Origin: Ostreococcus lucimarinus
Taxonomy: Eukaryota
Reading direction: 5' to 3' (one strand)
DNA length: 64,000 bases
Assembly: GCA_000092065.1 (NCBI GenBank)
Contig: CP000588.1
Positions within the stretch are counted from its first letter, which is position 1. Every line of letters begins with the position of its first letter. This document shows, in pieces, positions 399 to 57,863 of this stretch. Below the pieces are notes generated by a model. That model saw nothing but the letters and a program-made list of their open reading frames with translations. It had not been told where the DNA came from and searched no databases. The position numbers were made by a program, and so were the translations under genes.

Positions 399-546
399 CC
401 GATCGGCGTACCGTTTGATTAGACGCGCGCTTGAGAGTTTTACCCATTACAGCATCGCTCTCGAGAGTTTTGTCCTATGCGGCATCGCTCGCCTAGAAAC
501 GTTGAAAACGCGATTGATTACATTTCTTCTTCTAAGTACCACAACT

Positions 547-44394: not shown

Positions 44395-44547
44395 GTGTGC
44401 GCGCGTTTTCGTGCGCTCGGCGGCGATGCGCGACGCGTCGCGCGTTCAAATGTGCGGGCGAGTTTGAAATTTAATTTAAATTTAAAAACGCTCGTCGTCG
44501 GCGTCAGTCGTCGGCGCGCGTCGACGCGAAGCGACGACGCGCGCGCG

Positions 44548-44922
44548 ATGGTGTTTAAGACGCTGTGGAACTACGTCAAGGTGTACCGCGCGCAGACGCG
44601 CGCGCTGGAGCGCATACGCGCGGAGAGATCGGCGCTGGAGAAGACGCAGCGGGAAATCGCGGCGATGACGGAGAAAAATGCTGAAAACGAGCGCGCGCTC
44701 GCGTCGTTCGCGAAGTGGAGCGCGGGAGCGATGCGGGAGAACGCGTCGTCGATGGAAGAGATCGAGCGGGTGACGACGGAGATGACGGATAGGTTGGGAG
44801 CGGTGTCGGAACAGCACGTGAGGGACGCGTACGAGGCGGAGGCGCGAGCGGCGGAGGCGATGAACGCGTCGCGAGCGGCTGCGGTGTTTGCGAATCTGGA
44901 TGAGGTGAAGGGGAAGTCATGA
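44548..44922 (+). CDS. small coiled-coil protein (about 124 aa), unknown
   Basis: An ATG at 44548 (MVFKTLWNYVKVYRAQTRALERIRAERSALEKTQREIAAMTEKNAENERALASF...) lies inside track ORF 43768..44922. The upstream part of that ORF is antisense to the DEK gene. The gene is divergent from DEK with about 150 bp between the starts. Confidence 0.35.
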   Translation: MVFKTLWNYVKVYRAQTRALERIRAERSALEKTQREIAAMTEKNAENERALASFAKWSAGAMRENASSMEEIERVTTEMTDRLGAVSEQHVRDAYEAEARAAEAMNASRAAAVFANLDEVKGKS

Positions 44923-45009
44923 GCGGTTGGGGTAGCGTAGGGTAGCGTAGTCTCGTAGCGGTGTTGTGAGTGTACATGTTTTGTAGAAATTGAAAGGCGC
45001 GCGGCGTCT

Positions 45010-48000
45010 CTACTCGTCGGCGGGTTTGGCGGATTGCACGCGCATGGCGGGCTTGGATAATAAGCGACCGGTGCCGCGGCGTATACCCTCGAGCTCGGCG
45101 CGATGTTTGCCTGTGATTGGTTTCGCGCGCTCGCCCGCGGGTGGGCTGGTGTCGAAACGCATGTGCTTGTTCGGTCGCGCGAGCGATGGGCTCGACGGCG
45201 GTTCGTCGGCGTTGACATCACTCAAGATGCGCCGTGCTGTGCCCATGGTTCCCGGTGTCTTCCCAGGAGTGCGACCTGCTAATGGTCGCTTCACCGCGGG
45301 CGTGCGCGCGGTCGTCTTCGAGACGCTCGGTGGCGGTTCGATGCCCTTGAGTTGTGCGATTTCAGTCTTGGCCGCGTGCAAGGCGACTTCGAGAGACTCA
45401 ATGCGCGATCGCGCGGTGGAGTACTTGCTCCTCGTAGCCTGCGAAGACTTGTTTGCTTCATCAACGTCGTGCATGAGCGCCGTGACCTTGGCCTCCATCT
45501 CTTGCGCGCGTTCTTCCGCTCGCTTGCGAGCCGCCTTGGCGGAGTCCAAACGCGCATCCGATTTCGCGTGCGCGTCACCATCTGCGGTCGCGTTGTCGTT
45601 CGCGGCGAGCTTTCGCTCCAACTTTGCAATTTCTGCGTCCTTGAGTTCCATTTCCTCGTGTAGCTTACGAATTTGAGCTTGTGCGGTCCCTGCGGCGGAG
45701 AACTCAGCCGACGCAGCAGATTTCGCTCGCGAAATCTCTTCTCGCGCCGCAGCGAGTTTCTTTTCGGCGTTTCGAATGTCCGCTGCGAAAGCTGAGCTCA
45801 ACAGGCTCTTCTGCTCTTCTAACGCGACGGAATGTTCTTCGACCAGCTCGGTGCGCACGGCGTCTTCTGTCTCTGCACGCGCCCTTCTCATCTCAGCGAG
45901 CTCGTTTTCGAGATCTGTGATTTGAGACTTGTACTCGCGCTCTAATTCCTCCATCGTCTTCGTGTGCTCTTCGTTCAACGCCGCCAACTCATTGGCGTGC
46001 GCGTCCGCTGCCGACGTCGACTCTGTTTGTTCGAGCGCGTTCGCGAGACGTGCTTCCACGTCCGCCATGGCCTCTGCGTGCTTGCGCTCGAGTGCCTCCA
46101 AGGCTTCCGCCTGCGCGGCGTTTATCTTCTCAATCTGTTCCGAGAACGCTTGCGCTTGCGCCGCGAGTTTCGACGTGTGCGCGTCTACAAGCTCGACTTT
46201 CGCATTCGCCATCTCTTCGCGTAACGCGTCCATTGCCCGAGTGTGGCCCTCCTTGAGCGCATCGATCGCACGAGTGTGCTCTGCTCGCGCCGTCGCAGAC
46301 TCACCCGCGAATTTCGACTCGAGTTCGCCCGCTTGTTTCTCCAAAGCCGCCTCGTGCGCTGCACGCTCGACTTCGAATCCCCCCTCCACGTCGAATTTTA
46401 CACTCGCGAGCGCTTCTTCGTGTTTGCGCGCAAGAACCTGCAGTTCGGCGACGTGCGCAGTCTTAAGCTCGGCCATCGCCGCTTCGCCCGCCTCAGTCGC
46501 GGCGCCTACGGCAGCTTCGAATTCAGCTCGTTTCTTCTCCAGCTCGCAGTCGTGCTCAGCCTTTTGAGCGCTCAGCGCTGAATCTATTTTGCATTGCATC
46601 GTTTCCAACTCCGCCTTGGCCGCCGCGAGCGCGTTGGTCGTTTCTTCGTACGACGAGTTCGCACCCGCCGCCTTGGCTTCGGCGAGCTCGACGCGCGCCT
46701 CGAGCTCGGCTCTATCCTTGTCAGCTTGCACCTTGTGCGCCGCGAGCACTTCGAGCTTCGAAAACATCTCTTCCATCACTTCTTTGTTCTCTTCAAACGT
46801 CGCTTGAACGCGTGCGCGGTCGGCTTCCGCAGATTCCTTGGCCATCTTGTGCTCGTTCTCCAAAACTTCCGCCGCGAGTTGCGCCGCGCGAACGTTTTCC
46901 GCAGTCTCTTCGCTCGCCAACGCGCGACGCTCGGCGGCATCGGCAGCGGCTTGGAGAACTTGATTTTGCGCCTCGATGTCATCCAATGATTTCAAGGCAG
47001 CCGCTTTTTCGTCGAGCGCTTTGGCCGTAAGTTCGCCCTCAGCGATGACGAGCTTGCGCAAATCCTTCAATTCCTCCTCGGCGGTGGCTAAACGTCCGCG
47101 ATTGGCGGAGCGCTCATTCTCGGCTTGAAGGCGATCGGCGCGCTCTTGCAACGCCGCGAGTTCGATGCGGACGCGAACGACCTCGGGTGGGTGTTCGTTC
47201 TGCTTTCGAAGCTCTTCAATCTCCGCATTCACCGACTCTGGCGTTAACTCTTTGCGCTTGAGCGCCTCGTCGCGTAAACGAATCACCATCTTGGCGGATT
47301 GCAAATTCTTGTCCAAACACGTGCATAAATCCTTGGCGTGCTCGAGTTTGCTCTTCAGCTTCGCGAGCTCTTCTTCGCTATCCTTTGCCGCAGCCGCGGC
47401 CGCGCGATTCGCCTTCGCCATGATGGCTTCGAGTTCGACAATCTTCGCTCGAGCGTCGACGTCGTTCAAGCCGCCGCCACCCTCGGCGAGGAGCGCTCGC
47501 AAACGCCCAACCTCAGCCGCGAGCTCGTTCGCTGATCCGACGGATTCTTCGTTCGCCACTGCGCGGACTTTCACAAGCTTGGCGCGCTGGGCGAATTTCA
47601 GCGTAGACATTGTCTCCTCCACGTTCACATGCGCCGGCGAGACGCACGCGAGGAGCGTGCAGCGCGCGCGTCCGCCGAGCGCGTCCTTGAGCAAAAACGT
47701 CAACTTGGAATCGCGGTAGGGCACGTGTCGTTCCTTGCCGTCGGCCACGTCCACGAGGGCTTTGATGACGTTCCCGAGCGCGCTGAGCGATTTATTAATC
47801 GCGCTCGCCTCTTTCAAACGTTCACCTGCCGCGTCCGTGCTCTTCTGCCGCTCGCTCCCTGCGAGATCGACCAAGTGCAAAAGCGCGCTCTTTTTTGTCG
47901 TCGGCGCCGTGGGATGCGCCTTCGTGCGCGATTCCACCGAAATCGTGAACACGCTGTGCGAACGCGAAGAATCGGCATTCATATTCGTCTGACCCACCCT

Positions 48001-48741
48001 ACGATTCGCCGCACCGCGCAAAAACGTCTCGTACGTCTGCTCCGCCCCGTGCACGCGCTCCTCGTGCAAATTCTCCACAAACGTGCCTCGCTTGGCGTCT
48101 TCCCGCACGTTCGGCGCCGGTCCATCGTGCTCGGTATTCATCAACAAATCTCGCAACGTCTCGTTATAAATCTCCAAATACGAGCACTTCACTTCGATTT
48201 CGCACGCCCCGCCCGCTTCGATTGCCGCGTTCCTCGCCGACTCGCATCGCTCAAACAATCGCTTCAGCGCGCGCGGAATCAACCCCGCGTTCGGCGCGTC
48301 CAGCGCGTCCCCCTCCGCCCCTCCCGCCTCGCCCGGCGACATCATGACGCAATCATCGTCACCCTCAAACCCTCCGACGTCGTCGTCGCGATCTAAATCC
48401 ACGCCTTGCATCGAGTACGTCTTCCCCGCGCCCGTCTGCCCGTACGCGAGCACGCACCCGTGATACCCCTCCACCACGCCGTCCACCGCGTCGCGTCCGA
48501 CGCGTTCGAAAATCTCCTCCTGCGCCGACGACTGATCGCACACGTGGTCGTACGCGAAACTCAGCGCCGCCTTGCCCGCGACGCTCTCGCGGACGCTCCC
48601 GCGCTGGAGCGTCAGCGCGTTCGTCCCGTGCGTCTGCACGCACGGCGCGTAGCCGGCATCGATCTCTCTCGCGTTCGGCGGTCGCACGCGCACGAGCACG
48701 CGCACGGTGTCGTGGACGTCTCGCTCGACGTCGTGCGTCAT
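45010..48741 (-). CDS. kinesin-like protein with an N-terminal motor domain and a very long coiled-coil stalk
   Basis: The motor motifs are ...VRVLVRVRPPN..., P-loop ...AYGQTGAGKTYSM..., switch I ...NADSSRSHSVFTI..., switch II ...LVDLAGSERQ... and ...HVPYRDSKLTFLLKDALGG.... The frame is open to 49056 (track start). The ATG at 48741 (MTHDVERDVHDTVRVLV...) sits about 13 aa before the motor and is used here. Alternative ATGs lie at 48846 and 49056. Confidence 0.9.
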   Translation of the reverse strand: MTHDVERDVHDTVRVLVRVRPPNAREIDAGYAPCVQTHGTNALTLQRGSVRESVAGKAALSFAYDHVCDQSSAQEEIFERVGRDAVDGVVEGYHGCVLAYGQTGAGKTYSMQGVDLDRDDDVGGFEGDDDCVMMSPGEAGGAEGDALDAPNAGLIPRALKRLFERCESARNAAIEAGGACEIEVKCSYLEIYNETLRDLLMNTEHDGPAPNVREDAKRGTFVENLHEERVHGAEQTYETFLRGAANRRVGQTNMNADSSRSHSVFTISVESRTKAHPTAPTTKKSALLHLVDLAGSERQKSTDAAGERLKEASAINKSLSALGNVIKALVDVADGKERHVPYRDSKLTFLLKDALGGRARCTLLACVSPAHVNVEETMSTLKFAQRAKLVKVRAVANEESVGSANELAAEVGRLRALLAEGGGGLNDVDARAKIVELEAIMAKANRAAAAAAKDSEEELAKLKSKLEHAKDLCTCLDKNLQSAKMVIRLRDEALKRKELTPESVNAEIEELRKQNEHPPEVVRVRIELAALQERADRLQAENERSANRGRLATAEEELKDLRKLVIAEGELTAKALDEKAAALKSLDDIEAQNQVLQAAADAAERRALASEETAENVRAAQLAAEVLENEHKMAKESAEADRARVQATFEENKEVMEEMFSKLEVLAAHKVQADKDRAELEARVELAEAKAAGANSSYEETTNALAAAKAELETMQCKIDSALSAQKAEHDCELEKKRAEFEAAVGAATEAGEAAMAELKTAHVAELQVLARKHEEALASVKFDVEGGFEVERAAHEAALEKQAGELESKFAGESATARAEHTRAIDALKEGHTRAMDALREEMANAKVELVDAHTSKLAAQAQAFSEQIEKINAAQAEALEALERKHAEAMADVEARLANALEQTESTSAADAHANELAALNEEHTKTMEELEREYKSQITDLENELAEMRRARAETEDAVRTELVEEHSVALEEQKSLLSSAFAADIRNAEKKLAAAREEISRAKSAASAEFSAAGTAQAQIRKLHEEMELKDAEIAKLERKLAANDNATADGDAHAKSDARLDSAKAARKRAEERAQEMEAKVTALMHDVDEANKSSQATRSKYSTARSRIESLEVALHAAKTEIAQLKGIEPPPSVSKTTARTPAVKRPLAGRTPGKTPGTMGTARRILSDVNADEPPSSPSLARPNKHMRFDTSPPAGERAKPITGKHRAELEGIRRGTGRLLSKPAMRVQSAKPADE

Positions 48742-48912
48742 CGCCTCGCGCGGTGCGCGCGCGCCGAGGGCGAGGCGCGTCGACGTGTGCGGCGATGCCG
48801 ACGCCGAGGGGAACGAAGCGGAACTTAAACCGACTTTTTTCCTCATTCCCCTCGTCGAACGGCGCGCGTCCCGCACTCCGACGCGCGACGAGCTCGACGA
48901 CGACCGAGAAAG

Positions 48913-49350
48913 ATGTTGGGTAAAACGCTCAAGTTCCAAGCGCTCGTCATCGCGCTCGTCGCGGTGTCGTGCGTGATCGAAGACGGCGCGCAGGCGATCG
49001 CGAAGAAGATTACGCGATGCGTCGTGCGCGACTTTACGTTGGCGACGGTGTCGCACATCGCCGCGGGAGCGGCGAGTTCGACGAAGAAAGCGTTGGCGAA
49101 GGTAATGTTACTTATGCATGCGTTCTCCCTGTTCGACGTGTACGTGCGCGGGAGCTCGTGCTGCCCGACGAAGCTCATGGCGGCGCAGGCGTGCGCCGGC
49201 GCGCTCGCGTACGGGTTGTACGGCGGCGCGTTACCGATCCCGAAGATCGGTGGTGGTAAGAAGAAGTCGGCCAAGAAGTCGTCGTCTTCAGCCAAGAAGG
49301 CGACGCCCAAGCGTGCGAGCTCGAGATCGAGCTCGAGATCGCGAAAGTGA
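48913..49350 (+). CDS. possible small secreted or surface protein (145 aa): signal-peptide-like N-terminus, Cys-containing core, Lys/Ser-rich tail
   Basis: A real ATG gives MLGKTLKFQALVIALVAVSCVIEDG.... The tail is ...GGGKKKSAKKSSSSAKKATPKRASSRSSSRSRK. The ORF overlaps the upstream extension of the kinesin frame on the opposite strand, so the two are mutually exclusive only if the kinesin starts at 49056. Confidence 0.3.
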   Translation: MLGKTLKFQALVIALVAVSCVIEDGAQAIAKKITRCVVRDFTLATVSHIAAGAASSTKKALAKVMLLMHAFSLFDVYVRGSSCCPTKLMAAQACAGALAYGLYGGALPIPKIGGGKKKSAKKSSSSAKKATPKRASSRSSSRSRK

Positions 49351-49518
49351 GCGACTCGTCCCGACGACGTCGATCGACGCGCCCGGGACCCGCGCGCGGA
49401 CGATTTGAACAAGAAGTCCGTGGTCATCATCACCGATTTTATCTATTCCAAACGAAAGCATCTACTTAATCTAAACAGCACTGCGTGTAACGATAAGCGA
49501 GAAGACGTGTTGAATCAA

Positions 49519-50460
49519 TCACGCAGCGAACGCGGGCATCTGACTCACGACGACGCTCGCGAGCGCTGCGCGAGCGCCCCATCGCGCCGCCTTCGTCAAT
49601 GCTTTGAGCGGGACATCCGCCAACGTTTCCGTCGTGCGCTTCCCACCGTCGCTCGCCACGGCGGTGAGCGCCCAGGCGATGACGAGTGCGTACACAGGAT
49701 CGCCCGTCGTGAGCGTCACCGCAGCGCCCAAACCGCCCGCGCCGAACGCCGAGAGAAACGCCGTCGCGAGCTGCGTGTCCGGCGCGCACGTCTTCGCGAC
49801 GTGTGAGTTCAAGTTCACCAACGCCGCACATGAAATCCAACCGAAGTGCATCGACAGAGGAACGTGCGTCGTCCAATACCACGCCTTGCTCGCCGCGCTC
49901 GCCGCGGCGCGCAGCGCTCGGTGCGCCGAACCCAGCGCAACCGCCTCGGCGACCAACAACGCGCTCGACACCCAAAAGTGTCTAGGCGCCTTGGCCCACG
50001 GTCTGAACGCCGCGCACCACAACGCTTGAAACGCACACGCGAGCGCCCAGCTCGGCGCGACGGCGCGCGTCGCCGCCTCGCTCGCGCCGCCTCCGCTCGC
50101 CGACGCCAACGCGTGCGCCACCAGCGCGAACTCTCCGGCGTAAATCGCCCCCCAAATCGCGAACGCCCATCCCGCGGGCGTGAACAAGCTTCGGTATTCG
50201 CTATCGAGCGGAATCGCGTGCGTCTTCTCCTTCGCGTTTTCATCCTTCGCCTTCGCGGCGCGCGCCTCGGCTTGCGCGCGTCGCTGCATCTCCCCGTCGA
50301 TTCTGCCCGGCACGCTCACCGCGAGCACGTTGACGCCGTACGCGAGCGCGGTGACGAGTTGCCATGGCTTCAACCCCGCGAACGCGCGCGCGGACGCGGA
50401 GGCGATCCTGCGTGGAGAACACGCGGCGTCGGTCAGTACTGGAGGAGTGGATAGAGCCAC
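49519..50460 (-). CDS. Trp-rich multi-pass membrane protein, possibly TspO/MBR-like
   Basis: ...KPWQLVTALAYGVNVLAVSV...SEYRSLFTPAGWAFAIWGAIYAGEFALVAHAL...WALACAFQALWCAAFRPWAKAPRHFWVSSALLVAEAVALG...MHFGWISCAALVNLNSHV.... The W/F/P spacing recalls TspO (PxW.F..vW..LY) but with a long loop insertion. The track start (50460) is a GTG and the first ATG (about 50289) would delete TM1. A short upstream 5' exon may therefore be missing. Confidence 0.4.
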   Translation of the reverse strand: MALSTPPVLTDAACSPRRIASASARAFAGLKPWQLVTALAYGVNVLAVSVPGRIDGEMQRRAQAEARAAKAKDENAKEKTHAIPLDSEYRSLFTPAGWAFAIWGAIYAGEFALVAHALASASGGGASEAATRAVAPSWALACAFQALWCAAFRPWAKAPRHFWVSSALLVAEAVALGSAHRALRAAASAASKAWYWTTHVPLSMHFGWISCAALVNLNSHVAKTCAPDTQLATAFLSAFGAGGLGAAVTLTTGDPVYALVIAWALTAVASDGGKRTTETLADVPLKALTKAARWGARAALASVVVSQMPAFAA

Positions 50461-50635
50461 GCGGGACGCCGGGACGGAACGTACCAGGGCGCGAGCTTAG
50501 CGACCGCGAACGTCGCGGCGGCACCCGTGGCGCATATGAGCGCAGCGGTGACGTCGCGAGCGGCGTCGGGCATCGGAAGGCGCGCGCGCGCGAAAGTGTG
50601 GGGCGGAGACTGCGCTCGACTACAAGGCTACGGGC

Positions 50636-51913
50636 TCAGTCGGCGAAGACGGATTGCAAGCTCGGGAAAGGATCCGCCTTGGACAACACCAAGACGCGGT
50701 TCTTGTGCGATATGTAGCCCTTGATGAACTTTCTAAAGATCAAGTTGGCGACGATGCACTCGACCTCGTCGAGATCGACGTCGTCGGCGCCGCACCACGC
50801 GAGGGCGGTTTGGAATTTGGCGAGCGAGACTTGGTTCGCCTTCGCCGCGTCGGCGGTTTCGCCGTGAATGGCGTGCACTTTCTTGAACAGCGTGCGGTAG
50901 ACGGACATGCGAAGCTTTTCGAGGATCAGATACGTGCCCTGTTTGATGAAAGTCGATTCACCGTCGCTGAGGGCGGCGTCGAGCGTGCGCGCGTCGCCGC
51001 GGCGCATCGCCTCGACGACGTCGACAAACTCTCGCAACTCGTACTTCTCCAGTAACTTTCGCGACGGCAGCGTGCCTAAAATCAACTTCACCGGGATCAA
51101 GTACTGCAAAATCAATCGCACGTTCCGCGCGCTCTGCGCGTGACAATGCGCGAACGCGTACTCAAGATGCTCCGCCGCGCGCTCGTACGCGTCCTCGAAC
51201 ACCGCCAACCGCCCGACGTAAAAGTTATACGTCACCTTTTCCGACTTTGGGAACGAATCGAACGGCAAAAACGTCGGCAAGTTCACGGCGTTGATCAAGT
51301 TCTTGCACAAATGCAGCGCGTTGAGCTTGAAGTACACCTTGAATAGATTATTCACCACGTGCAACTGCGGCGCCTTCTTCTCCGCCGTCGACGTCTGCGA
51401 CACCGCTCTGTACACCAGCATCAGCGTCGACCCGGCGTCGGCGAGTTTGCTCGGTTTTTCCCCCCCGCGCTTCAGCGCCTCATCCGCGCGCTGCGCCAAC
51501 GCTCTCGCGTCGTCCACCGCGACGTACCACGCCTCGCTCGTCCACGCCGAGTCCTCGTCCGCCCTGTACGCCTTCACGAAATCCTTCACCCCTCTCGCGT
51601 GCGCCTCGTACGCGCGCACCGCGTCCTCGTCCCTCCCGCTTCCCGCCAGCGTCCGCGCGCACGCGAACGCCCCCATCGCGTCGTCCCACGGCGCGCGCAC
51701 GCCTCGCTCGCGCATCAGCGTCGCCGCGCGGTCGCAATCCGAACCGCACGCGCGCGTCCACGTCGCGTCGTCCTCGTCGCGCTCGCGCGTCGTCGACGCG
51801 CCGGCGTCGACGCACGACGCGAGCGCGCGTCCATCGCGTCGCGCGATCGCGTCTCGACACCGCGCCGCGCGCGCGTCCATGCTCGCGCCGGCGTGTGCGC
51901 CGCGCGCGTCCAT
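50636..51913 (-). CDS. PCID2: PCI-domain protein PCID2/Thp1 (TREX-2 / CSN12-like)
   Basis: ...QLHVVNNLFKVYFKLNALHLCKNLINAV...VTYNFYVGRLAVFEDAYERAAEHLEYAFAHCH...RLILQYLIPVKLILGTLP...IKGYISHKNRVLVLSKADPFP aligns with human PCID2 ([27 protein letters not shown] / [32 protein letters not shown] / [21 protein letters not shown]). The ATG at 51913 is in a short duplicated MDAR segment, so the start could also be about 51880. Confidence 0.8.
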   Translation of the reverse strand: MDARGAHAGASMDARAARCRDAIARRDGRALASCVDAGASTTRERDEDDATWTRACGSDCDRAATLMRERGVRAPWDDAMGAFACARTLAGSGRDEDAVRAYEAHARGVKDFVKAYRADEDSAWTSEAWYVAVDDARALAQRADEALKRGGEKPSKLADAGSTLMLVYRAVSQTSTAEKKAPQLHVVNNLFKVYFKLNALHLCKNLINAVNLPTFLPFDSFPKSEKVTYNFYVGRLAVFEDAYERAAEHLEYAFAHCHAQSARNVRLILQYLIPVKLILGTLPSRKLLEKYELREFVDVVEAMRRGDARTLDAALSDGESTFIKQGTYLILEKLRMSVYRTLFKKVHAIHGETADAAKANQVSLAKFQTALAWCGADDVDLDEVECIVANLIFRKFIKGYISHKNRVLVLSKADPFPSLQSVFAD

Positions 51914-51922
51914 GCTCGCGTC

Positions 51923-52260
51923 GGCGAATCGTCCGACGGCCGGCGCCGCGCGCGCGAGTCCCCTCTTTACGAGTCATGACCCATTGAGACATTGTTCTAA
52001 ACACCCGATCTCGTACACGACGCGCGTCTCGTACACGACGCGCGAAAACGCCCATTAAAAGTCGTTAGGACGGCGAATCGTCCGACGGCCGGCGCCGCGC
52101 GCGCGCGTCCCCTCTTTGTGAGTCATGACCCATTAAGACATTGTTCTAAACACCCGATCGCGCGTCTCGTACACGACGCGCGAAAACGCCCATCAAAAGT
52201 CGTTAGGACGGCGCGCGCGCGCGCGCGATCGGCGGCGAATCGTCCGACGCCGCGCGCGAC
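51923..52260. repeat. tandem direct repeat of about 140-150 bp, 2 full copies plus a diverged partial third, in the PCID2/MDH divergent intergenic region
   Basis: Copy 1 is about 51923..52072 and copy 2 about 52073..52212, at about 93% identity. The shared core is GGCGAATCGTCCGACGGCCGGCGCCGCGCGCGCG.GTCCCCTCTTT..GAGTCATGACCCATT.AGACATTGTTCTAAACACCCGATC...TCGTACACGACGCGCGAAAACGCCCAT.AAAAGTCGTTAGGACG. Copy 1 carries an extra internal 17-bp duplication (TCTCGTACACGACGCGCG twice). A partial diverged third copy (GGCGAATCGTCCGACGCCGCGCGCGACC) lies at about 52232..52260. Confidence 0.85.
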
Positions 52261-52284
52261 CGCGGAGCGCGACGCGCGACGACG

Positions 52285-52400
52285 ACGACGCGAGCGGCGA
52301 TGACGACGACGATGACGACGATGACGACGACGATGACGGCGCGCGCGACGACGACGACGCGCGCGCGAACGACGACGACGACGACGACGACGCGGGCGGC
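52285..52400. repeat. (ACG/ATG)n trinucleotide microsatellite at the 5' end of the NADP-MDH ORF, encoding a poly-Thr/Met/Ala tract
   Basis: GACGACGACGATGACGACGATGACGACGACGATGACGG...AACGACGACGACGACGACGACGACGCGG is translated in the MDH frame as [13 protein letters not shown]...TTTTTTTT. Confidence 0.85.
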
Positions 52401-53625
52401 GATAGGTCGACGACGCGCGCGCGAACCGAACGCGCGACGACGCGGAGACGCGTGCGTGCGGTACAACACGCCCGCGGGCGTGGGGAGGAAGGCGGACGAT
52501 CCTCTGGGGGTGTTCAGGCTGGAGTACGACATCTCGATGGACGAGGCGCATCGACCGAAGACGTGGAAGCCGACGGTCACGGTGGCGGTGAGCGGCGCGG
52601 CGGGGCAGATTTCGAATCACTTGTTGTTTAAGATCGCGAGTGGGTCGGTGTTCGGACACGATCAGCCGGTGGTGTTGAGATTGCTCGGGAGCGAGCGGTC
52701 GAGACAGGCGCTGGAGGGGGTGGCGATGGAGCTGGAGGATTGCTTGTTTCCGTTGTTGCGCGAGGTCGACATCGGCATCGACTGCAGGAAAGTCTTCGCG
52801 GGCGCGGATTGGGCGCTGTTGATCGGGGCGAAGCCGCGTGGACCGGGGATGGAGCGCGGAGATTTGCTTGAGATGAATGGGGCGATTTTCGTCGATCAAG
52901 GCAAGGCGTTGAACGAGGTGGCGAAGCCGACGTGCAAGGTCATCGTCGTCGGGAACCCTTGCAACACGAACGCGCTCATCGCGCTGTCGCACGCGCCCAA
53001 CTTGGATCCGCGCAACTTCCACGCGTTGACCAAGCTCGACGAAAACAGAGCAAAGTGTCAACTCGCGCTCAAGGCGGGCGTGTTCTACGAAACCGTGAGT
53101 AACGTCGTCATTTGGGGCAACCACTCCACGACGCAGGTGCCGGATTTCGTCAACGCCAAGATCGACGGTAAGAAAGCCACCGAAGTCATCACCGATCAAG
53201 ACTGGCTCGAGAACGACTTCACTCCCGCGATTCAAACCCGCGGCGGGTTGCTGATCAAAAAGTGGGGTCGCTCTTCCGCGGCGTCCACGGCGGTGTCCAT
53301 CGCCGATCACATCAGAAATTTGGTCAACCCGACGCCGGAGGGCGACTGGTTCTCCACAGCCGTGCTCAGTAACGGTAACCCGTACGGCATCCAAGACGGC
53401 ATCGTTTACTCCTTCCCGTGCCGCTCCAAGGGCGATGGTTCGTACGAAATCGTTCCCGGTTTAGAAGTGAACGACTGGCTTCGCGAGCGCATGAAGAAGA
53501 GCGAAGAAGAGCTCACCAGCGAAAAGGGCTGCGTCGGCCACCTCGTCGGGGAAGCGCACGTTGACGTCCCAGACGCAGGGTGCCCGGTCGATCTCGAAGA
53601 CACTCTTTTGCCAGGTGAAATGTAA
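52300..53625 (+). CDS. MDH: NADP-dependent malate dehydrogenase (chloroplast type) with a C-terminal regulatory extension
   Basis: ...[67 protein letters not shown] matches plant NADP-MDH nearly residue for residue. The C-terminal extension ...[34 protein letters not shown] carries the two regulatory Cys. The N-terminus contains a poly-Thr/Met run encoded by an (ACG)n repeat, and the exact start is uncertain. Confidence 0.88.
53620..53624 (+). promoter_or_regulatory. TGTAA putative polyadenylation signal overlapping the MDH stop codon (green-algal type signal)
   Basis: TGTAA pentamers recur within about 0-50 nt downstream of several stop codons here. ABC-F has one at about 36966..36970 on the plus strand. 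NadB and POLA1 have them on the minus strand (plus-strand TTACA at about 518..522 for POLA1). Chlorophyte nuclear genes are known to use TGTAA rather than AATAAA. Confidence 0.4.
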
Positions 53626-53959
53626 GCGGCACACGCGAGCAGATGAAAAGAGTCCCGTTGACTCGTGCGCTCGCTCGACGCAACTTACGCATATTGAATC
53701 AAAACCACATCGTTGCATAACCATTTCAATAACATCAATATTCTGGTATAATAACCAACGCGACCACTGCGCGCGCCGACGAGAAAATTCGCCGCGTTCA
53801 CCGTCGGCGGCGAGGCGCACGGGGTGGGCGAGGTGCGAAGACGATGCGTCGCTCGGAGAGGCTTCGTTTGATTATGGTTAATACAACTCGGAAGATTTGA
53901 AAAAATAATTTGAACTCGAGCGCGTTTCCGCGAGTGAAACGACTTGAGTTAGTGTCGGT

Positions 53960-54799
53960 TTAGTTTAAAGGTTTACGGCAGACGAAGACGCCCCACGCGA
54001 AGACGCCGTGATCGCGTTGAGTGTCCGCGCGCTCGGTGAGCGACTCGAGCCAATTGTCGAGGTACTTATCCGTCAAACCCTTGGAGAGCATCTCTTCGCG
54101 ATGGGTGTGAATCTGCTTGATCATGTCGCGGAAATACGTTTCCAAGTGATTGCTGCCGTCCCACCACGTGACGTAATCCAGTCCGGCATCCTTCATGCAC
54201 TGCAGGTACGTGGACGGGCGACCCATCACCGTGGTGGCGTTGCGATCGGTGAATCCCTTGAGGGTCTTTTCATCGGCGCCGTCGGCACCCATGATGTCCG
54301 AAAACACGAACGCGGCGCCCGGCTTCAACACGCGCGCGACTTCTTTGAATAATTCGGGCTTATCGCCGGCGTGGCACAACACCTCGCACGACCACGCGCC
54401 GTCGAACGAATTCGTCCAATCCGCCGGAAACGGCTTGTTAATGTCCCCGACGACCGCGTCGACGAGATCGCCCAGGCCGAGCTCCTTCGCCTTGGCGATG
54501 TTCTGCGCGTTTTGTCCCGGTCCAATGTTATATCCCATCACCGAGCATCCGTACTTCTTCGCCAACGCGTGCGATCCGCCGCCGTGCCCGCTTCCGATGT
54601 CCAGCAACTTATCCCCCGCCCCGATCGGTCGCGCCATGTCCAACTGCGTCATCATCCACGCCGTCGTCGCCGCGCTCGACTCGCGCACCCCATCTTTCGC
54701 GTCTCTGTAGATACCAAAGTGAATATCGTCACCACCACCGCCCATGACGATCGTGTAAAACAGTCGCTGCTCGGCTTCGTCGTACTGCTCGAGCACCAT
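53960..54799 (-). CDS. class I SAM-dependent N-methyltransferase of the glycine-sarcosine / sarcosine-dimethylglycine methyltransferase (GSMT/SDMT) type
   Basis: The track ORF starts at a GTG (54808). The real ATG is 3 codons in, giving MVLEQYDEAEQRLFYTIVMGGGGDDIHFGIYRD.... That block mirrors the GSMT/SDMT N-terminal signature FYxxVWGGEDIHxGLY. The SAM-binding motif I is LLDIGSGHGGGSHALAKKYGC, and the post-I/II motifs are ...VVGDINKPFP...FDGAWSCEVLCHAGDKPELFKEVARVLKPGAAFVFSDIM. The total is about 279 aa, like SDMT. Confidence 0.75.
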   Translation of the reverse strand: MVLEQYDEAEQRLFYTIVMGGGGDDIHFGIYRDAKDGVRESSAATTAWMMTQLDMARPIGAGDKLLDIGSGHGGGSHALAKKYGCSVMGYNIGPGQNAQNIAKAKELGLGDLVDAVVGDINKPFPADWTNSFDGAWSCEVLCHAGDKPELFKEVARVLKPGAAFVFSDIMGADGADEKTLKGFTDRNATTVMGRPSTYLQCMKDAGLDYVTWWDGSNHLETYFRDMIKQIHTHREEMLSKGLTDKYLDNWLESLTERADTQRDHGVFAWGVFVCRKPLN

Positions 54800-55094
54800 C
54801 TTCCCCACCTCCTCCTTGTCGAACTGTTTCCCGACGAAATCAGCCTGCGAATCGCGCGACGCGATCGTTCGTCAGTCTCGCTTCGCGCGCGCGTCGTCGT
54901 CGTCGTCCTCCGCGCCGTCGCGCGCCGCCGAAGCGTCGCGACGTCGCGACGTCCCGATCGCCGTCGTCGCCGTCGGTTTATCCGGCGCTCGCGTCGCGCG
55001 CGCGTCGCGTCGGCGCGCGCGCGTCGCGTCGGCGCGTCGCGCGCGCGCACCATGATGCGCGTTCGCCGTCTCGGTCGCGATCGAGCGCGTCGCG

Positions 55095-56081
55095 GTGTGC
55101 GCGCGCGACGCGACGCTTCGCTTCGGTCGTCACAATCGACCGCGACGGTTCGCGACGCGGCGACGCCGCGCGACGCCGCGCGAGCCTCGCGCGCGCGCGC
55201 GGCGACGACGACCGCGACGCATGAGCGTGCGCGCGCGCGCGGCGGCGTTCGCCGCGGGAACGGCGCGACCGATCGACGGCGACGCGCCGGCGACGCGCGA
55301 GGACGCGCGCGCGCGAAACGCGACGAGGACGACGACGACGACGACGACGACGCGCGACGACGCGACGACGGAGGGCTCGGGGACGCGCGTCGACGCGTCG
55401 ACGGCGCGCGCGCGAGGCGCGGCGACGCGCGAGGAAGGCGCGAGCGGGACGCGCGGCGACGCCGCGCGGTTCGAGCGCGCGTTTGAAAAGGCGTGCGACG
55501 CGTTGGCGCTCGCGCGGGCGATCGAGGCGACGGTGCGACGGGAAACGGTTTGGACGGGACGAAGCTCGGCGCGCGAGCGCGCGCGGGCGAGATCGTTGGC
55601 GGCGGAGCGGGCGTACGAAGCCGTCGCGGAGCGACCCGGCGTAACCGTCGACGCGAAGCGCGACGAACGCGCGAGGCCGGCGTCGAGCGGTCGAACGACG
55701 GCGACGGCGCGCGAGGAGGAAGATACGTCGATGAGTGTCGTGCGGTCGTTTTCGTTCGCGCGGGACGAGGTCGACGGTGACGATGGCGACGTCGGCGACG
55801 CGGACGCCGACGAAGACGAACCGTCGCGAGAGGCGTTCGAGGACGACGGCGGCGAATCAGGCGCGCTGCGCGAGATCGCGCGCGCGCGTCGCGAGATCGC
55901 GAGCTTACTCGCCGACTCTCGGAGCGACGCCGCGCGCGGCCGTCCACGACGCCTCGACGCGGAGACGCCCGCGGAGACGCGAACCGTCGCCTCGCCGAAT
56001 CGCCGCGTCGAAAAAACCATCGTCATGGATCGAATCGCCATGATCGACGGCATCTTAGCCGCGCTCGCGGAGGATCGATGA
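55095..56081 (+). CDS. possible low-complexity (Arg/Ala/Asp/Thr-rich) protein; strand and reality uncertain
   Basis: ATG start. The C-terminal part (...FERAFEKACDALALARAIEATVRRETVW...IVMDRIAMIDGILAALAEDR) is protein-like. The ORF fills the gap between the divergent methyltransferase start and the convergent BSD2-like gene end. The competing minus-strand ORFs (54652..55947, 55130..56218) are Arg-rich with no domain signal. Confidence 0.2.
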   Translation: MCARDATLRFGRHNRPRRFATRRRRATPREPRARARRRRPRRMSVRARAAAFAAGTARPIDGDAPATREDARARNATRTTTTTTTTRDDATTEGSGTRVDASTARARGAATREEGASGTRGDAARFERAFEKACDALALARAIEATVRRETVWTGRSSARERARARSLAAERAYEAVAERPGVTVDAKRDERARPASSGRTTATAREEEDTSMSVVRSFSFARDEVDGDDGDVGDADADEDEPSREAFEDDGGESGALREIARARREIASLLADSRSDAARGRPRRLDAETPAETRTVASPNRRVEKTIVMDRIAMIDGILAALAEDR

Positions 56082-56221
56082 TGCGTTCGGTCGTGTCGTA
56101 TCGTATCGCATCGCGACGCAACGCGCGTCCATCTTCGCGGCGCACCGTGTAATCTACTTCTAGAGTCTATAGCCCGCGACGGCTTCGCGACGCGCGTCCC
56201 CGGCTCGCCTTCGCCCATCTC

Positions 56222-56632
56222 TCAGTCCTCTCCCATGCGAAACCCGATCGGGTCTCGATGCGCCCCCGTTCCCAGGCAATCCATGCACACGCTTCGTCCC
56301 GAGCCTCGGCAGTCGACGCACCATCGCGGCCACGCGCCGCGCGCCTGCACCTCGCCGTCCCGTCTCGCGTTCTCCCGCCCTCGCGCCTCGCACCGCGCGC
56401 ACGCCCGCGTCCCGAATCCATCGCACGCCGCGCACGTCCTCTTACCCTCGGGCGTCGCCCGCGCGCGCTCGAACGCGCGCGGGCGCGCCCACGTCGACGC
56501 GTCGTCGTCGTCGTCGCTCGCGGCGCGCGGCGTCGCGCGCGGACGCGCACCGCGCGGCGTCGCGCGCGCGCGGCGACCGGCGACCGGCGCGGCGACGACG
56601 ACGGCGCGCGGCGCCGCGCGCGACGTCGCCAT
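56222..56632 (-). CDS. small chloroplast-type DnaJ-like zinc-finger protein with four CxxCxGxG repeats (BSD2-like Rubisco-assembly-factor architecture)
   Basis: The last 136 codons of the otherwise spurious 710-aa ORF 56222..58354 start at an in-frame ATG (cat 56630..56632). The sequence is MATSRAAPRAVVVAAPVAGRRARATPRGARPRATPRAASDDDDDASTWARPRAFERARATPEGKRTCAACDGFGTRACARCEARGRENARRDGEVQARGAWPRWCVDCRGSGRSVCMDCLGTGAHRDPIGFRMGED. It has two pairs of CxxCxGxG-x3-CxxCxGxG separated by about 20 aa, as in BSD2, preceded by an Ala/Arg-rich presequence. Confidence 0.55.
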   Translation of the reverse strand: MATSRAAPRAVVVAAPVAGRRARATPRGARPRATPRAASDDDDDASTWARPRAFERARATPEGKRTCAACDGFGTRACARCEARGRENARRDGEVQARGAWPRWCVDCRGSGRSVCMDCLGTGAHRDPIGFRMGED

Positions 56633-56744
56633 GCGCGTCGACGCGCGCGCGCGGTGCGCGTCTCCGCGCGCGACGACCACTGGCGACATCACAACACGGC
56701 GCGCGCGCGAACGCGGACGAACGCGCGCGCGGCGCGCGGACGCG

Positions 56745-57554
56745 ATGCGCGGACGAGCGATGCGCGCGTGCGCGGAGACGATCGGCGCGATGCGCCGCGG
56801 CGCGACGCGCGCGGAACGCGGCGCGATCGGACGGTGGTTGATTTCGAGCCGCGATGACGATCGAAGCGCTGGCGCGACGCGCGAGCGCGCGAACGCGCTC
56901 GAGACGCGACCGCGGACGTACGCCAACGCGTCGCGAGCGTTCGGGGCGTCGCGCACGGTGGAACAGTGGAGCGAACTCGCGGAACGGGGGGTGGACGTGA
57001 ATCCGTGCAATAGCCCGAAACACCCGGCGGCGCTGGCGGGAGTGCAGACGGCGTTCGACGCCGGACGCACGCGAAGGAGCCTGCAGGAGGCGTATGATCC
57101 GCATTGTATCGATTTCGTGTGCGGACGCGCGCACGACACGGCGGGGAAGATTGGATTGGTGTCGTATCGATGCGAAAACGAGGAAAACGTGCTCGAGTCG
57201 CACTTGAAGTTTCCGTCGCAGTACGAAGAGTTTCCAGGAATCATCGGACCGGCGATGTACGGCGTCGCGGCGAGCGCGCATGGAAATTGGGCGGCGTCGA
57301 TCGCGCTGATGGACCGCGCGATCCTACCGAGACCGCCGTTGGTGGCGGTGAAATCGCTCGCGGTGAGCGTCGTCGACTTGGTCGGTCCGGGCGAGCCCTT
57401 GACGTTACGATCGCGATTGCTCGAGGTCGAGGACGCGCGCGAACCGTTCCGCGTCGTCGTCGAGATCGAGATCAAATCCAAAGCCACGTCAAAAGTCGTC
57501 GCTCGAGCGGAGTGTTCGTACGAAAAAATCGGCGCCGTGCGTTCGATGCGGTGA
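56745..57554 (+). CDS. hotdog-fold (thioesterase/dehydratase-like) protein with an organellar presequence
   Basis: Track ORF 56235..57554 is Arg-rich junk up to about 56740. From the ATG at 56745 (MRGRAMRACAETIGAMRRG...) a presequence leads into ...VDVNPCNSPKHPAALAGVQ...HCIDFVCGRAHDTAGKIGLVSYRCENEENVLESHLKFPSQYEEFPGIIGPAMYGVAASAHGNWAASIALMD...VVVEIEIKSKATSKVVARAECSY. This has the central-helix and long-beta-sheet layout of 4HBT/PaaI-type hotdog proteins. Confidence 0.45.
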   Translation: MRGRAMRACAETIGAMRRGATRAERGAIGRWLISSRDDDRSAGATRERANALETRPRTYANASRAFGASRTVEQWSELAERGVDVNPCNSPKHPAALAGVQTAFDAGRTRRSLQEAYDPHCIDFVCGRAHDTAGKIGLVSYRCENEENVLESHLKFPSQYEEFPGIIGPAMYGVAASAHGNWAASIALMDRAILPRPPLVAVKSLAVSVVDLVGPGEPLTLRSRLLEVEDAREPFRVVVEIEIKSKATSKVVARAECSYEKIGAVRSMR

Positions 57555-57863
57555 TATCGTCCAACGCTCTTCGCTCGCCGCGGCGACGCCCGAGCCCCGA
57601 CTTCGACCTTCCCCGATCCCGCGCGATTCCCTTTCACCGTTTTGTACGCTGTTGTACCGTGTATAGCCGTCATCATGTAGTTTAGAGCAGCACGCACGCT
57701 CACGCTCGCCGGTTCGCCGACGCCCTCGCGCCGCTCTCGGGAAACCCTTTCACCCTTGGACCATCGCGCCTCCTGCCAGCACACGCGCGCGCGCACGACC
57801 GTCCTCGACGCGTCCCGCGCGCACGTGGACACGCGCACATCGTCGACGTCGACCGCGCGCGCG

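What the first reader, a model, noticed from the sequence alone, without database searches (positions are those of the whole stretch)
51923..52260. About 145-bp tandem duplication (2.3 copies) filling the PCID2/NADP-MDH bidirectional promoter and spawning ORF-lets
Two near-identical units (about 51923..52072 and 52073..52212) plus a diverged partial third are arranged head-to-tail between the divergently transcribed PCID2 and MDH starts. Copy 1 abuts the PCID2 ATG and has an extra internal 17-bp duplication, pointing to ongoing replication-slippage-type instability. Each unit has a lower-GC core (GAGTCATGACCCATTGAGACATTGTTCTAAACACCCGATC) that contrasts sharply with the flanks. This could be a duplicated promoter or UTR module, a satellite-like element or a remnant of a short mobile or introner-like element. 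Several track ORFs (52118..52303, 51480..52055 and others) are by-products of the repeat. The MDH 5' end then continues into an (ACG)n microsatellite, so the whole 51.9-52.4 kb interval is repeat-built.
Basis: seen in the sequence. Interest (0 to 1): 0.5.

Follow-up and report, generated by a model that had tools for sequence, protein, structure and literature searches.

The report
Duplicated promoter core in hypervariable spot
The short DNA stretch between two back-to-back housekeeping genes of the tiny marine alga Ostreococcus is copied twice in this genome; this is an ordinary replication-slip duplication, but wild populations show the same spot has duplicated several separate times and varies about 20 times more than its surroundings.

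Summary
Window 51922-52070 (149 bp) and 52071-52208 (138 bp) are head-to-tail copies, 133/138 identical, with one 11-bp indel. They fill the space between a PCID2 homologue (-) and chloroplast NADP-malate dehydrogenase (+). The genome is Ostreococcus lucimarinus-type.

It is local, not a dispersed element. The core occurs nowhere else in the window or in viral contigs. All 4 metagenome matches lie at this same locus.

Of 46 wild contigs covering the locus, 35 carry one ungapped unit.

The window junction is exactly what a microhomology-mediated tandem duplication predicts: CGGCG, 138 bp apart. Wild contigs carry other duplications of the same core with different junctions: 162 bp (11-nt microhomology), 132 bp (TCGT), and an array of at least 4 copies.

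The intergenic region is also a point-mutation hotspot. Pairwise difference is 1.75% against 0.087% in 17 kb of flanks, and no SNPs were seen in 2.6 kb of adjacent coding DNA. One TGAGTCA heptamer stays invariant in all single-copy alleles.

Verdict: a duplicated promoter core at an unstable locus. It is a known kind of event. The regulatory effect is untested. Interest is moderate to low.

The parts
50636..51913 (-). PCID2 homologue (PCI-domain protein). The ORF from the upstream ATG gives 425 aa. The conserved start is the second ATG at 51880, giving 414 aa.
   Evidence: PDB 8r7j_B 'PCI domain-containing protein 2', E 4.1e-77. Pfam PCI and TPR_PSMD3_N. The C-terminal 346 aa are identical to XP_001419295.1 of O. 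lucimarinus CCE9901. M12 aligns with the start Met of three sister lineages.
51865..51930 (.). Imperfect 33-bp tandem patch that repeats GCGTCCATGCTCGCG and so creates the extra upstream in-frame ATG of PCID2. It is dimorphic in the wild.
   Evidence: Family D3. The patch is absent from L002, L008, L022 and the whole 414-aa group.
51922..52070 (+). Copy 1 (U1, 149 bp) of the duplicated promoter core, on the PCID2 side. It carries CGAGTCA in place of TGAGTCA.
52009..52044 (+). Perfect 18-bp tandem (TCTCGTACACGACGCGCG x2) inside U1, a net +11 bp relative to U2. It lies at a GC-rich hairpin-forming palindrome (CGCGCGTC..GACGCGCG).
   Evidence: TRF score 72, 100% matches. Alignment. Hairpin in DNA folds. 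Other wild alleles have a 10-bp insertion at the same point.
52071..52208 (+). Copy 2 (U2, 138 bp) of the duplicated promoter core, on the MDH side. It keeps TGAGTCA at 52119-52125.
52066..52080 (+). Duplication junction ..TTAGGA|CGGCG|AATCG.. holding a single copy of the 5-nt microhomology CGGCG.
   Evidence: Duplicating the segment between the two CGGCG sites, which lie 138 bp apart in single-copy alleles L015 and L024, predicts AAGTCGTTAGGACGGCGAATCGTCCGACGGCC. That is identical to the window sequence.
51940..52001 (+). Hypervariable 62-bp segment of the unit (the equivalent in U2 is about 52089-52150). It surrounds the invariant heptamer.
   Evidence: 27 alleles among 42 copies; 21 transversion and 13 transition variant states. 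22 distinct alleles among 37 single-copy contigs, with four-gamete violations at 2-7 bp.
52209..52232 (+). (GC)n-ATCGG linker, 24 bp. Its length is polymorphic and it is itself duplicated 2.5x in L060.
52233..52258 (+). A' box: CGGCGAATCGTCCGACG plus CCGCGCGCG. This is an older partial repeat of the first 17 nt (+9) of the unit and is present in single-copy alleles too. A multi-nucleotide variant TCC/CGC is common.
   Evidence: (D3).
52277..52392 (+). (ACG)n microsatellite. Most of it codes for the Thr-rich N-terminal presequence of MDH. It is length-polymorphic (MDH 437-444 aa in wild contigs).
   Evidence: TRF period 3, 40.7 copies. Gene tables.
52300..53625 (+). Chloroplast-type NADP-dependent malate dehydrogenase, 441 aa.
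   Evidence: TIGR01757 at 653.4 bits, cut-off 598.3. Pfam Ldh_1_N and Ldh_1_C.

Best explanation
The feature is a genuine, lineage-specific microhomology-mediated tandem duplication (MTD). It duplicates the lower-GC core of the roughly 250-280-bp region between the divergent PCID2 and NADP-MDH genes of an Ostreococcus lucimarinus-type genome.

Shown:
- Most wild genomes carry one unit.
- In single-copy alleles the unit is bracketed by two CGGCG pentamers 138 bp apart.
- The window has unit-CGGCG-unit with exactly one pentamer at the junction. This is the footprint of replication slippage or template switching between microhomologies.
- Copy 1 later gained 11 bp at a hairpin-forming palindrome, and the two copies differ at 5 sites.
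- The same core has duplicated independently in other wild lineages through other microhomology pairs: an 11-nt pair 162 bp apart, and TCGT 132 bp apart. In one lineage it has expanded to at least 4 copies.
- The segment also carries about 20-fold excess point variation, with homoplasy between sites a few bp apart.

Inferred:
- GC-rich non-B-DNA-prone flanks ((GC)n tracts, a palindrome) stall replication. Error-prone restart then produces duplications, small indels and clustered substitutions together.
- The unit is the core of the shared bidirectional promoter. It is the only GC-poor DNA between the two starts. It holds a TGAGTCA palindrome that never varies in single-copy alleles.
- A tandem copy leaves each gene's proximal promoter geometry unchanged and adds one upstream copy of every cis-element. 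Duplication is therefore tolerated and may modestly tune expression.
For: - Repeat anatomy.
- Locality: no other copy in 64 kb; 0 hits in viral contigs; 4/4 metagenome hits at the orthologous locus.
- Copy-number census in 46 wild contigs: 35 single-copy and ungapped; 3 with two or more cores (L002, L022, L060); L057 with a second unit beside a gap; 4 further N gaps; 3 contigs end or leave the locus.
- Two assemblies whose contig_N naming suggests long reads are single-copy (L037/L054, L040/L059).
- The predicted MTD junction from L015/L024 equals the window junction. The predicted 162-bp MTD from L031/L036 matches L022 with 3/480 mismatches. TRF gives L022 period 162, 2.1 copies, 97% matches, score 656.
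- The 132-bp junction AAAGTCGT|CCGACGG appears in two scaffolds from different samples, and L060 has four cores.
- Diversity: 39/643 segregating columns in 51860-52410 against 64/17362 in the background, Fisher p 5e-30. Pairwise difference is 1.75% against 0.087%. There are zero segregating sites in 50700-51699 and 52408-53607. The pattern is replicated in the second haplogroup, left side only.
- Homoplasy: 21 four-gamete violations, the closest 2-7 bp apart.
- TGAGTCA is intact in 37/37 single-copy alleles. It is disrupted only in 2 of 10 assessable copies from multi-copy arrays.
- The divergent PCID2/MDH arrangement is conserved in four related lineages.
- MTD as a general mechanism with 5-8-bp microhomologies: PMC8639346 and bioRxiv 10.64898/2026.02.28.708716.
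Against: - There are no transcription-start, expression or binding data. 'Promoter core' and any regulatory effect are inference.
- Short-read metagenome assemblers can collapse tandem repeats, so the single-copy fraction may be overestimated. About 10 of 46 contigs have gaps or ends at the locus.
- The two window copies differ by 3.6%, roughly the local allelic diversity. The event is therefore either not recent or arose by unequal exchange between two alleles rather than intramolecular slippage. These cannot be told apart here.
- DNA folding of the unit is not exceptional: z = 0.40 for U1 and -2.0 for U2 plus linker. The non-B-DNA cause of the hotspot is weakly supported.
- Contigs were retrieved by exact identity of one of the two proteins. 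This biases against diverged haplotypes, although it does not constrain synonymous or other intergenic sites.
- Conservation of the TGAGTCA-containing motif between species is weak: z about 3.4, equal to the best shuffle.
Confidence: 0.85

Rival explanations
1. The recurrent duplications and the dense variation are driven by selection, not only by mutation bias. Extra promoter copies or new cis-variants would tune NADP-MDH (malate valve) or PCID2 expression in different ocean environments. The independent duplications would then be parallel adaptive amplifications. This reading is compatible with an MTD origin.
For: - At least three independent junction types duplicate the same core.
- One lineage has expanded to at least 4 copies.
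- The diversity peak is narrow and centred on the unit, while other nearby intergenic regions are invariant.
- The invariant TGAGTCA within the variable zone shows that selection does act here.
Against: - Most wild contigs are single-copy.
- Four-gamete violations at 2-7 bp point to recurrent mutation or conversion rather than old balanced alleles.
- Motif-disrupting changes in duplicated arrays look like relaxed constraint, not adaptation.
- There are no expression or environmental-association data.
Confidence: 0.15
2. The unit is a remnant of a small mobile element (MITE-like, or introner-like as in Micromonas) that inserted between the genes and was then copied.
For: - The lower-GC core contrasts with its flanks.
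- The single-copy unit is flanked by a 17-nt direct repeat, CGGCGAATCGTCCGACG.
- A weak 33-nt, 73% inverted match links the two ends (I2).
Against: - There is no second locus anywhere: the 64-kb window with 3 mismatches allowed, viral contigs, and JGI metagenome contigs, where all 4 hits are the orthologous locus.
- The inverted match is mostly self-complementary (GC)n plus GTCC/GGAC.
- A 17-nt flank that continues into further similarity is a partial duplication, not a target-site duplication.
- The unit is intergenic and lacks splice-site context.
- It contains a heptamer under constraint, which is also present in sister species' intergenic regions.
Confidence: 0.02
3. The two copies are an assembly or sequencing artefact (an expanded repeat) in the reference sequence.
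For: GC-rich repeats are error-prone for assemblers. Several metagenome scaffolds have N gaps exactly here.
Against: - The copies differ at 5 substitutions and an 11-bp indel. An artefactual re-use of reads would not produce that.
- Ungapped or partly gapped multi-copy haplotypes exist independently in wild assemblies (L022, L060, L057, L002).
- The junction has a clean microhomology signature.
Confidence: 0.03

Closest known systems
Microhomology-mediated tandem duplications (MTDs) described in Schizosaccharomyces pombe and later across microbes (PMC8639346; bioRxiv 10.64898/2026.02.28.708716)
   Same: A single-copy segment bracketed by a short identical sequence becomes segment-MH-segment, with one microhomology at the junction. 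Microhomologies are 4-11 nt here and 5-8 nt in the ssp1 examples. Duplications can expand further into multi-copy repeats, as in L060.
   Different: Here it is seen as standing variation in a natural algal population rather than as subclonal or selected laboratory events. Units are 132-162 bp, against 55-92 bp in the cited ssp1 alleles. Several overlapping microhomology pairs have fired at one intergenic site. The event lies in a promoter, not a coding frame. Reversion was not observed.
Tandem-repeat promoter alleles of fungal cyp51 genes (TR34/TR46 in Aspergillus fumigatus cyp51A; 126-bp enhancer repeats in Penicillium digitatum CYP51). From my own knowledge, not checked here.
   Same: A promoter segment tens to about 130 bp long, carrying transcription-factor sites, is duplicated head to tail and is polymorphic among isolates.
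   Different: Those alleles have a demonstrated expression increase and a known selective agent (azoles). Here no phenotype, selective agent or expression effect is known, and the promoter is bidirectional.
Unstable tandem repeats in yeast promoters that tune expression (Vinces et al. 2009, Science). From my own knowledge; the paper itself was not retrieved (one search lists only citing papers).
   Same: Copy-number-variable repeats sit in the promoter region, flanked by otherwise stable sequence. They are a potential source of rapid expression variation.
   Different: The yeast cases are mostly short-unit, multi-copy repeats. Here a long unit has just begun to repeat (1, 2, or at least 4 copies).
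Indel- and repeat-associated substitution clusters (Tian et al. 2008 Nature; McDonald et al. 2011 PLoS Biol). From my own knowledge, not checked here.
   Same: Point substitutions are concentrated within about 100-300 bp of indel-prone repeats, as around this unit.
   Different: The excess here is large (about 20-fold) and confined to roughly 60 bp. It is transversion-rich and surrounds a strictly conserved heptamer. The cause has not been established.
Introner elements of Micromonas, or MITEs
   Same: Only the size class (about 140 bp) and a GC contrast with the flanks.
   Different: The unit is not dispersed and not intronic. It has no real terminal inverted repeats and no short target-site duplication.

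Membership tests
Microhomology-mediated tandem duplication (MTD) | Two copies head to tail with no spacer | tested here: met
   U1 ends at 52070 and U2 starts at 52071.
Microhomology-mediated tandem duplication (MTD) | A single-copy allele exists in which the duplicated segment is bracketed by the same short sequence | tested here: met
   In L015 and L024, CGGCG occurs at both ends, 138 bp apart. 35 single-copy wild contigs exist.
Microhomology-mediated tandem duplication (MTD) | Exactly one copy of the microhomology at the novel junction, so that the predicted junction equals the observed one | tested here: met
   The predicted AAGTCGTTAGGACGGCGAATCGTCCGACGGCC is identical to the window. The L022 prediction matches with 3/480 mismatches.
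Microhomology-mediated tandem duplication (MTD) | Arises de novo by replication slippage and reverts at high rate | not testable with these tools
   This needs deep sequencing of clonal cultures or mutation-accumulation lines.
Miniature or other mobile element (MITE, introner-like) | Multiple dispersed copies in the genome | tested here: not met
   There is no other copy in 64 kb with up to 3 mismatches. There are 0 viral hits. All 4 metagenome matches are at the orthologous locus. The complete genome was not available.
Miniature or other mobile element (MITE, introner-like) | Terminal inverted repeats and a short target-site duplication, or for introners an intronic location with splice sites | tested here: not met
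   The only inverted match is 33 nt at 73% and is dominated by (GC)n. The flanking direct repeat is 17 nt and continues into more similarity. The unit is intergenic.
Satellite / minisatellite array | Several or more tandem copies of the unit | tested here: not met
   The window has 2 copies and most wild genomes have 1. One wild scaffold (L060) has at least 4 cores, a possible nascent array.
Bidirectional promoter | Two divergently oriented genes with start codons less than 1 kb apart, an arrangement conserved in relatives | tested here: met
   The distance is 386 bp in the window (419 bp from the conserved PCID2 start) and about 246-279 bp in single-copy alleles. The same gene pair is divergent in four related lineages.
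Bidirectional promoter | Transcription of both genes initiates from the shared region and depends on it | not testable with these tools
   No CAGE, RACE or reporter data are available. Indirect support only: the GC dip and the invariant TGAGTCA.
NADP-dependent malate dehydrogenase (TIGR01757) | Score above the curated equivalog cut-off | tested here: met
   653.4 bits against a cut-off of 598.3.
PCID2 / Thp1 / CSN12 family | Full-length similarity to PCID2 with a C-terminal PCI domain | tested here: met
   Human PCID2 chains at E 4e-77 over residues 73-422. Pfam PCI.

The most novel reading that the evidence does not exclude
The PCID2/NADP-MDH intergenic region could be a eukaryotic analogue of a contingency locus. 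On this reading, a roughly 60-bp promoter segment has a mutation rate one to two orders of magnitude above its surroundings, for substitutions, small indels and 130-160-bp duplications. Copy number and cis-variants would then be repeatedly sampled by selection to retune expression of the chloroplast malate valve, or of the mRNA-export factor PCID2, across ocean populations of a near-clonal picoalga.
Probability: 0.1. Interest if true: 0.7.

Novelty: new member of a known kind. Interest (0 to 1): 0.35.

Why it matters
The duplication alone is routine structural variation. It warns that the reference genome carries a minority allele at this promoter. The upstream PCID2 ATG and the small ORFs in the repeat should not be trusted as annotation.

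The context is more useful. This is a clean natural example of one promoter core duplicated independently through several different microhomology pairs. Single-copy progenitor alleles are still segregating, and the segment also shows about 20-fold excess point variation next to completely invariant coding DNA.

If the excess is mutational, the locus is a compact natural system for studying repeat- or non-B-DNA-associated mutagenesis in a eukaryote with a tiny genome. If it is selective, it marks cis-regulatory evolution of a central redox enzyme in an abundant marine phototroph. The invariant TGAGTCA gives a concrete, testable candidate cis-element in an organism whose promoters are poorly characterised.

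Tried and rejected
- Tandem Repeats Finder on the window did not report the 138/149-bp repeat. The gap-free finder and a global alignment were used instead.
- Rfam at a permissive threshold found only one chance-level miRNA match outside the unit: 20 bits against a gathering score of 70. The small-RNA idea was dropped.
- Pfam on the two ORF-lets found nothing.
- The viral-contig scan for the core found nothing, so a prasinovirus origin was dropped.
- The TGAGTCA heptamer is not enriched in the window: 5 found against 3.8 expected. It is not a general promoter motif on this evidence.
- Single-strand DNA folding of U1 is unremarkable (z = 0.40) and U2 plus linker is only mildly stable (z = -2.0). 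This is weak support for a cruciform or hairpin cause.
- Alignment of the unit to sister-species intergenic regions is essentially unalignable. The exception is one 18/19 match, CTCTTTC(T)TGAGTCA(C/T)GAC, in inverted orientation. Its score equals the best of 300 shuffles, so it is kept only as a lead.
- There is no ~140-bp repeat in sister species.
- Two diversity tables are corrupted on the MDH side. One is affected by misalignment to the duplicated window; the other by two aberrant contigs (L038 rearranged, L040 error-rich). Only their left halves are used.
- Literature searches for Ostreococcus bidirectional promoters or tandem duplications at this locus found nothing specific.
- The sigma-70 promoter scanner, the genome-contig collection (bacteria and archaea) and the phage, plasmid and E. 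coli collections were not used, because they do not apply to a green alga.

Full report
**1. The observation**

Window 51922-52070 (149 bp, U1) and 52071-52208 (138 bp, U2) are directly adjacent copies of one sequence.
- The gap-free repeat finder gives two collinear blocks: 92 nt at 95% and 55 nt at 98%.
- A global alignment gives 133 identities, 5 mismatches and one 11-bp indel.
- Three sub-sequences of the unit (40, 18 and 28 nt), each searched with up to 3 mismatches, occur only at these two places in the 64-kb window. Shuffles expect 0.00-0.01 hits.
- GC falls to 0.55-0.58 inside the units, against 0.78-0.80 on either side.
- Tandem Repeats Finder lists the perfect 18-bp tandem inside U1 (52009-52044), a (GC)8.5 run and the (ACG)n tract 52277-52392. 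It does not list the long repeat itself.

**2. Context and organism**

- The left neighbour, 50636..51913 (-), has a PCI domain and matches human PCID2 structures at E 4e-77.
- The right neighbour, 52300..53625 (+), passes the NADP-malate dehydrogenase equivalog model: 653 bits against a cut-off of 598.
- The last 346 residues of the PCID2 ORF are identical to XP_001419295.1 of Ostreococcus lucimarinus CCE9901. The window is therefore consistent with that reference genome.
- The same divergent gene pair is found in four related lineages with 80-84% MDH identity.
- Their PCID2 proteins start at the residue that aligns with M12 of the window ORF. The conserved start is therefore the ATG at 51880. 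The upstream ATG at 51913 lies in a 33-bp imperfect tandem patch that one wild haplogroup lacks.
They are typical of GC-rich DNA.
- Rfam finds nothing in the unit.

**3. Local or dispersed?**

A 20-mer from the best-conserved part of the core has no match in viral contigs. It has four matches in the JGI metagenome contigs. All four sit next to the PCID2 and/or MDH anchors, that is, at the same locus. The species is thus sampled several-fold in that collection, yet no second locus appears. The unit is a local sequence, not a dispersed element. The complete genome could not be searched.

**4. Copy number in nature**

Exact-protein look-ups returned many metagenome contigs of this species. The census of 46 distinct contigs gives:
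- 35 run through the locus ungapped with one unit.
- 3 show two or more cores (L002, L022, L060).
- L057 has a second unit next to a gap.
- 4 more have N gaps exactly here.
- 3 end or leave the locus.

Two assemblies with contig_N names, which I take to be long-read assemblies, are single-copy (L037/L054, L040/L059). Single copy is therefore real and not only a short-read collapse.

Single-copy alleles read A box (CGGCGAATCGTCCGACG) - body - (GC)n-ATCGG - A' box. It pre-dates the duplication.

**5. Mechanism of origin**

In single-copy alleles L015 and L024 the pentamer CGGCG occurs at the start of the A box and again right after ..GTTAGGA, 138 bp downstream. Duplicating the segment between them predicts the junction AAGTCGTTAGGACGGCGAATCGTCCGACGGCC. 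This is the window sequence.

This MH-segment-MH to MH-segment-MH-segment-MH pattern defines microhomology-mediated tandem duplication. It has been described experimentally in fission yeast with 5-8-bp microhomologies (PMC8639346). A later preprint argues that it is the dominant route to tandem repeats (bioRxiv 10.64898/2026.02.28.708716).

Other wild contigs carry different duplications of the same core:
- L022 has a 162-bp period (TRF score 656). An 11-nt microhomology CGCGTCGGCGA in alleles L031/L036 predicts it with 3/480 mismatches.
- L057 and L060 share a 132-bp junction, AAAGTCGT|CCGACGG, with microhomology TCGT.
- L060 has at least four cores and a 24-bp linker repeated 2.5 times.

At least three independent events have therefore duplicated this core. 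Smaller length variants abound: 9-bp, 10-bp, 11/18-bp, 24-bp, 33-bp and about 40-bp indels, plus (GC)n and (ACG)n length changes. Sister species have no comparable long repeat.

**6. An unexpected property: local hypervariability**

Across 18 kb aligned for 20 wild contigs there are only 119 segregating columns. None lies in 50700-51699 or 52408-53607, the bulk of the two coding regions. By contrast, 23 lie in 51900-52051 and 15 in 52214-52407.

| Region | Mean pairwise difference | Segregating columns |
|---|---|---|
| 51860-52410 | 1.75% | 39/643 |
| Background | 0.087% | 64/17362 |

Fisher p is 5e-30. Other nearby intergenic regions are not variable. The exception is a short-repeat tract near 57.7 kb.

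A 62-bp stretch of the unit has 27 alleles among 42 copies, with more transversion than transition states, 21 against 13. Among 37 single-copy alleles there are 22 distinct sequences. Four-gamete violations occur between sites 2, 5 and 7 bp apart. This points to recurrent mutation or short-tract conversion rather than a few old alleles.

Copies within one array share their lineage's version of the most variable dodecamer; for example, all L060 copies read CGTTAATACATTG. The variants are therefore allelic, not collapsed paralogues.

The second haplogroup shows the same contrast: 1 segregating site in 1.2 kb of PCID2 against 31 in the intergenic region (left half only).

For scale, O. tauri intergenic diversity is about 0.009-0.01 (PMC5498103).

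Two caveats apply. Contigs were retrieved by exact identity of one protein. Alignment around indels inflates column counts somewhat.

**7. What the unit probably is**

It is the only GC-poor DNA between two divergent starts about 250-280 bp apart. Inside the variable zone the heptamer TGAGTCA is intact in 37 of 37 single-copy alleles. The only two disrupted copies are window U1 (CGAGTCA) and L060 copy 3 (TAAGTCA). Both sit in multi-copy arrays: 2/10 against 0/37, p about 0.04.

TGA(C/G)TCA is the classical AP-1/GCN4-type bZIP site; this rests on established knowledge, not on a test here. Three sister lineages have TGACTCA in the same intergenic region, within an 18/19 match found in inverted orientation. 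That match is statistically weak. The heptamer is not enriched window-wide.

I infer that the unit is the core of the shared promoter. A tandem copy preserves each gene's proximal geometry: U1 stays next to PCID2 and U2 next to MDH. It adds an upstream copy of each element. That would explain why such duplications are tolerated and why redundancy lets one copy decay. None of this is shown, because no expression or start-site data exist.

**8. Rivals**

- A mobile or introner-like origin fails on dispersal, termini and location.
- An assembly artefact is unlikely. The copies differ at 5 sites and an indel, and independent wild assemblies contain multi-copy versions.
- Selection-driven parallel amplification cannot be excluded and is compatible with the MTD origin. 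The homoplasy and the single-copy majority favour a mutational hotspot.

**9. Verdict**

This is a real, local, microhomology-mediated duplication of a probable bidirectional promoter core, in a minority (reference-strain) allele. It is a new example of a known kind of event.

The surrounding locus is more interesting than the duplication. It is a narrow hotspot of recurrent duplication, small indels and point changes inside an otherwise almost invariant genomic neighbourhood.

Interest is 0.35. The most novel reading, a selectable hypermutable promoter, is given about 10%.

Noticed in passing
window 51860-52410 (strongest 51940-52001), compared with L001-L060: The PCID2/MDH intergenic region is about 20 times more diverse among wild contigs than 17 kb of flanks. 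There were no SNPs at all in about 2.6 kb of the adjacent coding DNA. A 62-bp stretch has 27 alleles in 42 copies, is transversion-rich, and shows four-gamete violations 2-7 bp apart. The cause is unknown (hypermutation or selection).
   Followed up: partly
window 52119-52125 (TGAGTCA in U2) and 51970-51976 (CGAGTCA in U1): The palindromic heptamer TGAGTCA is invariant in all 37 single-copy wild alleles. It is broken only in copies that belong to multi-copy arrays. Sister species carry TGACTCA in the same intergenic region. It is a candidate bZIP-type cis-element.
   Followed up: partly
window 51865-51930: A dimorphic 33-bp imperfect tandem patch duplicates the PCID2 start-codon context. It adds an in-frame upstream ATG (425 aa against 414 aa). 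One wild haplogroup lacks it, and sister species start at the downstream ATG.
   Followed up: yes
L038 (ERZ27313163:k141_5202), locus 1-1266 (-): In this wild contig the sequence beyond the A' box is not MDH. It is an ORF of at least 422 aa with a signal peptide, many Cys and NxS/T sites, and no Pfam match. This is either a rearrangement or insertion breakpoint inside the promoter, or a chimeric contig.
   Followed up: partly
window 57700-57790: A second hypervariable spot lies upstream of the pyruvate carboxylase gene. It is a short ACCCTT(T)(G/C)-type repeat with many length alleles among wild contigs.
   Followed up: partly
window 44300-44499: This window has 9 segregating columns among 20 wild contigs. 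It falls in the 5' part of a gene whose product length varies (401-415 aa in different contigs). It is probably a coding low-complexity repeat.
   Followed up: no
window 52277-52392 and the MDH calls in L001-L060: The (ACG)n tract encodes a Thr-rich presequence of NADP-MDH. It is length-polymorphic (437-444 aa). Sister species also have Thr-rich (ACG)n N-termini.
   Followed up: partly
window 43500-61500 against L001-L020: The window differs from every wild contig at 27-44 of about 17,360 background sites. The wild contigs differ from each other by only 0.087%. The reference strain is thus a slight outlier relative to the sampled ocean population.
   Followed up: no
L060 locus 9766-9826 (ERZ23487381 scaffold_776): The 24-bp linker CGGCGCGCGCGCGTCGGCGATCGG is itself repeated 2.5 times at 100% identity, inside an array of at least 4 promoter-core copies. 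This looks like a nascent minisatellite.
   Followed up: partly
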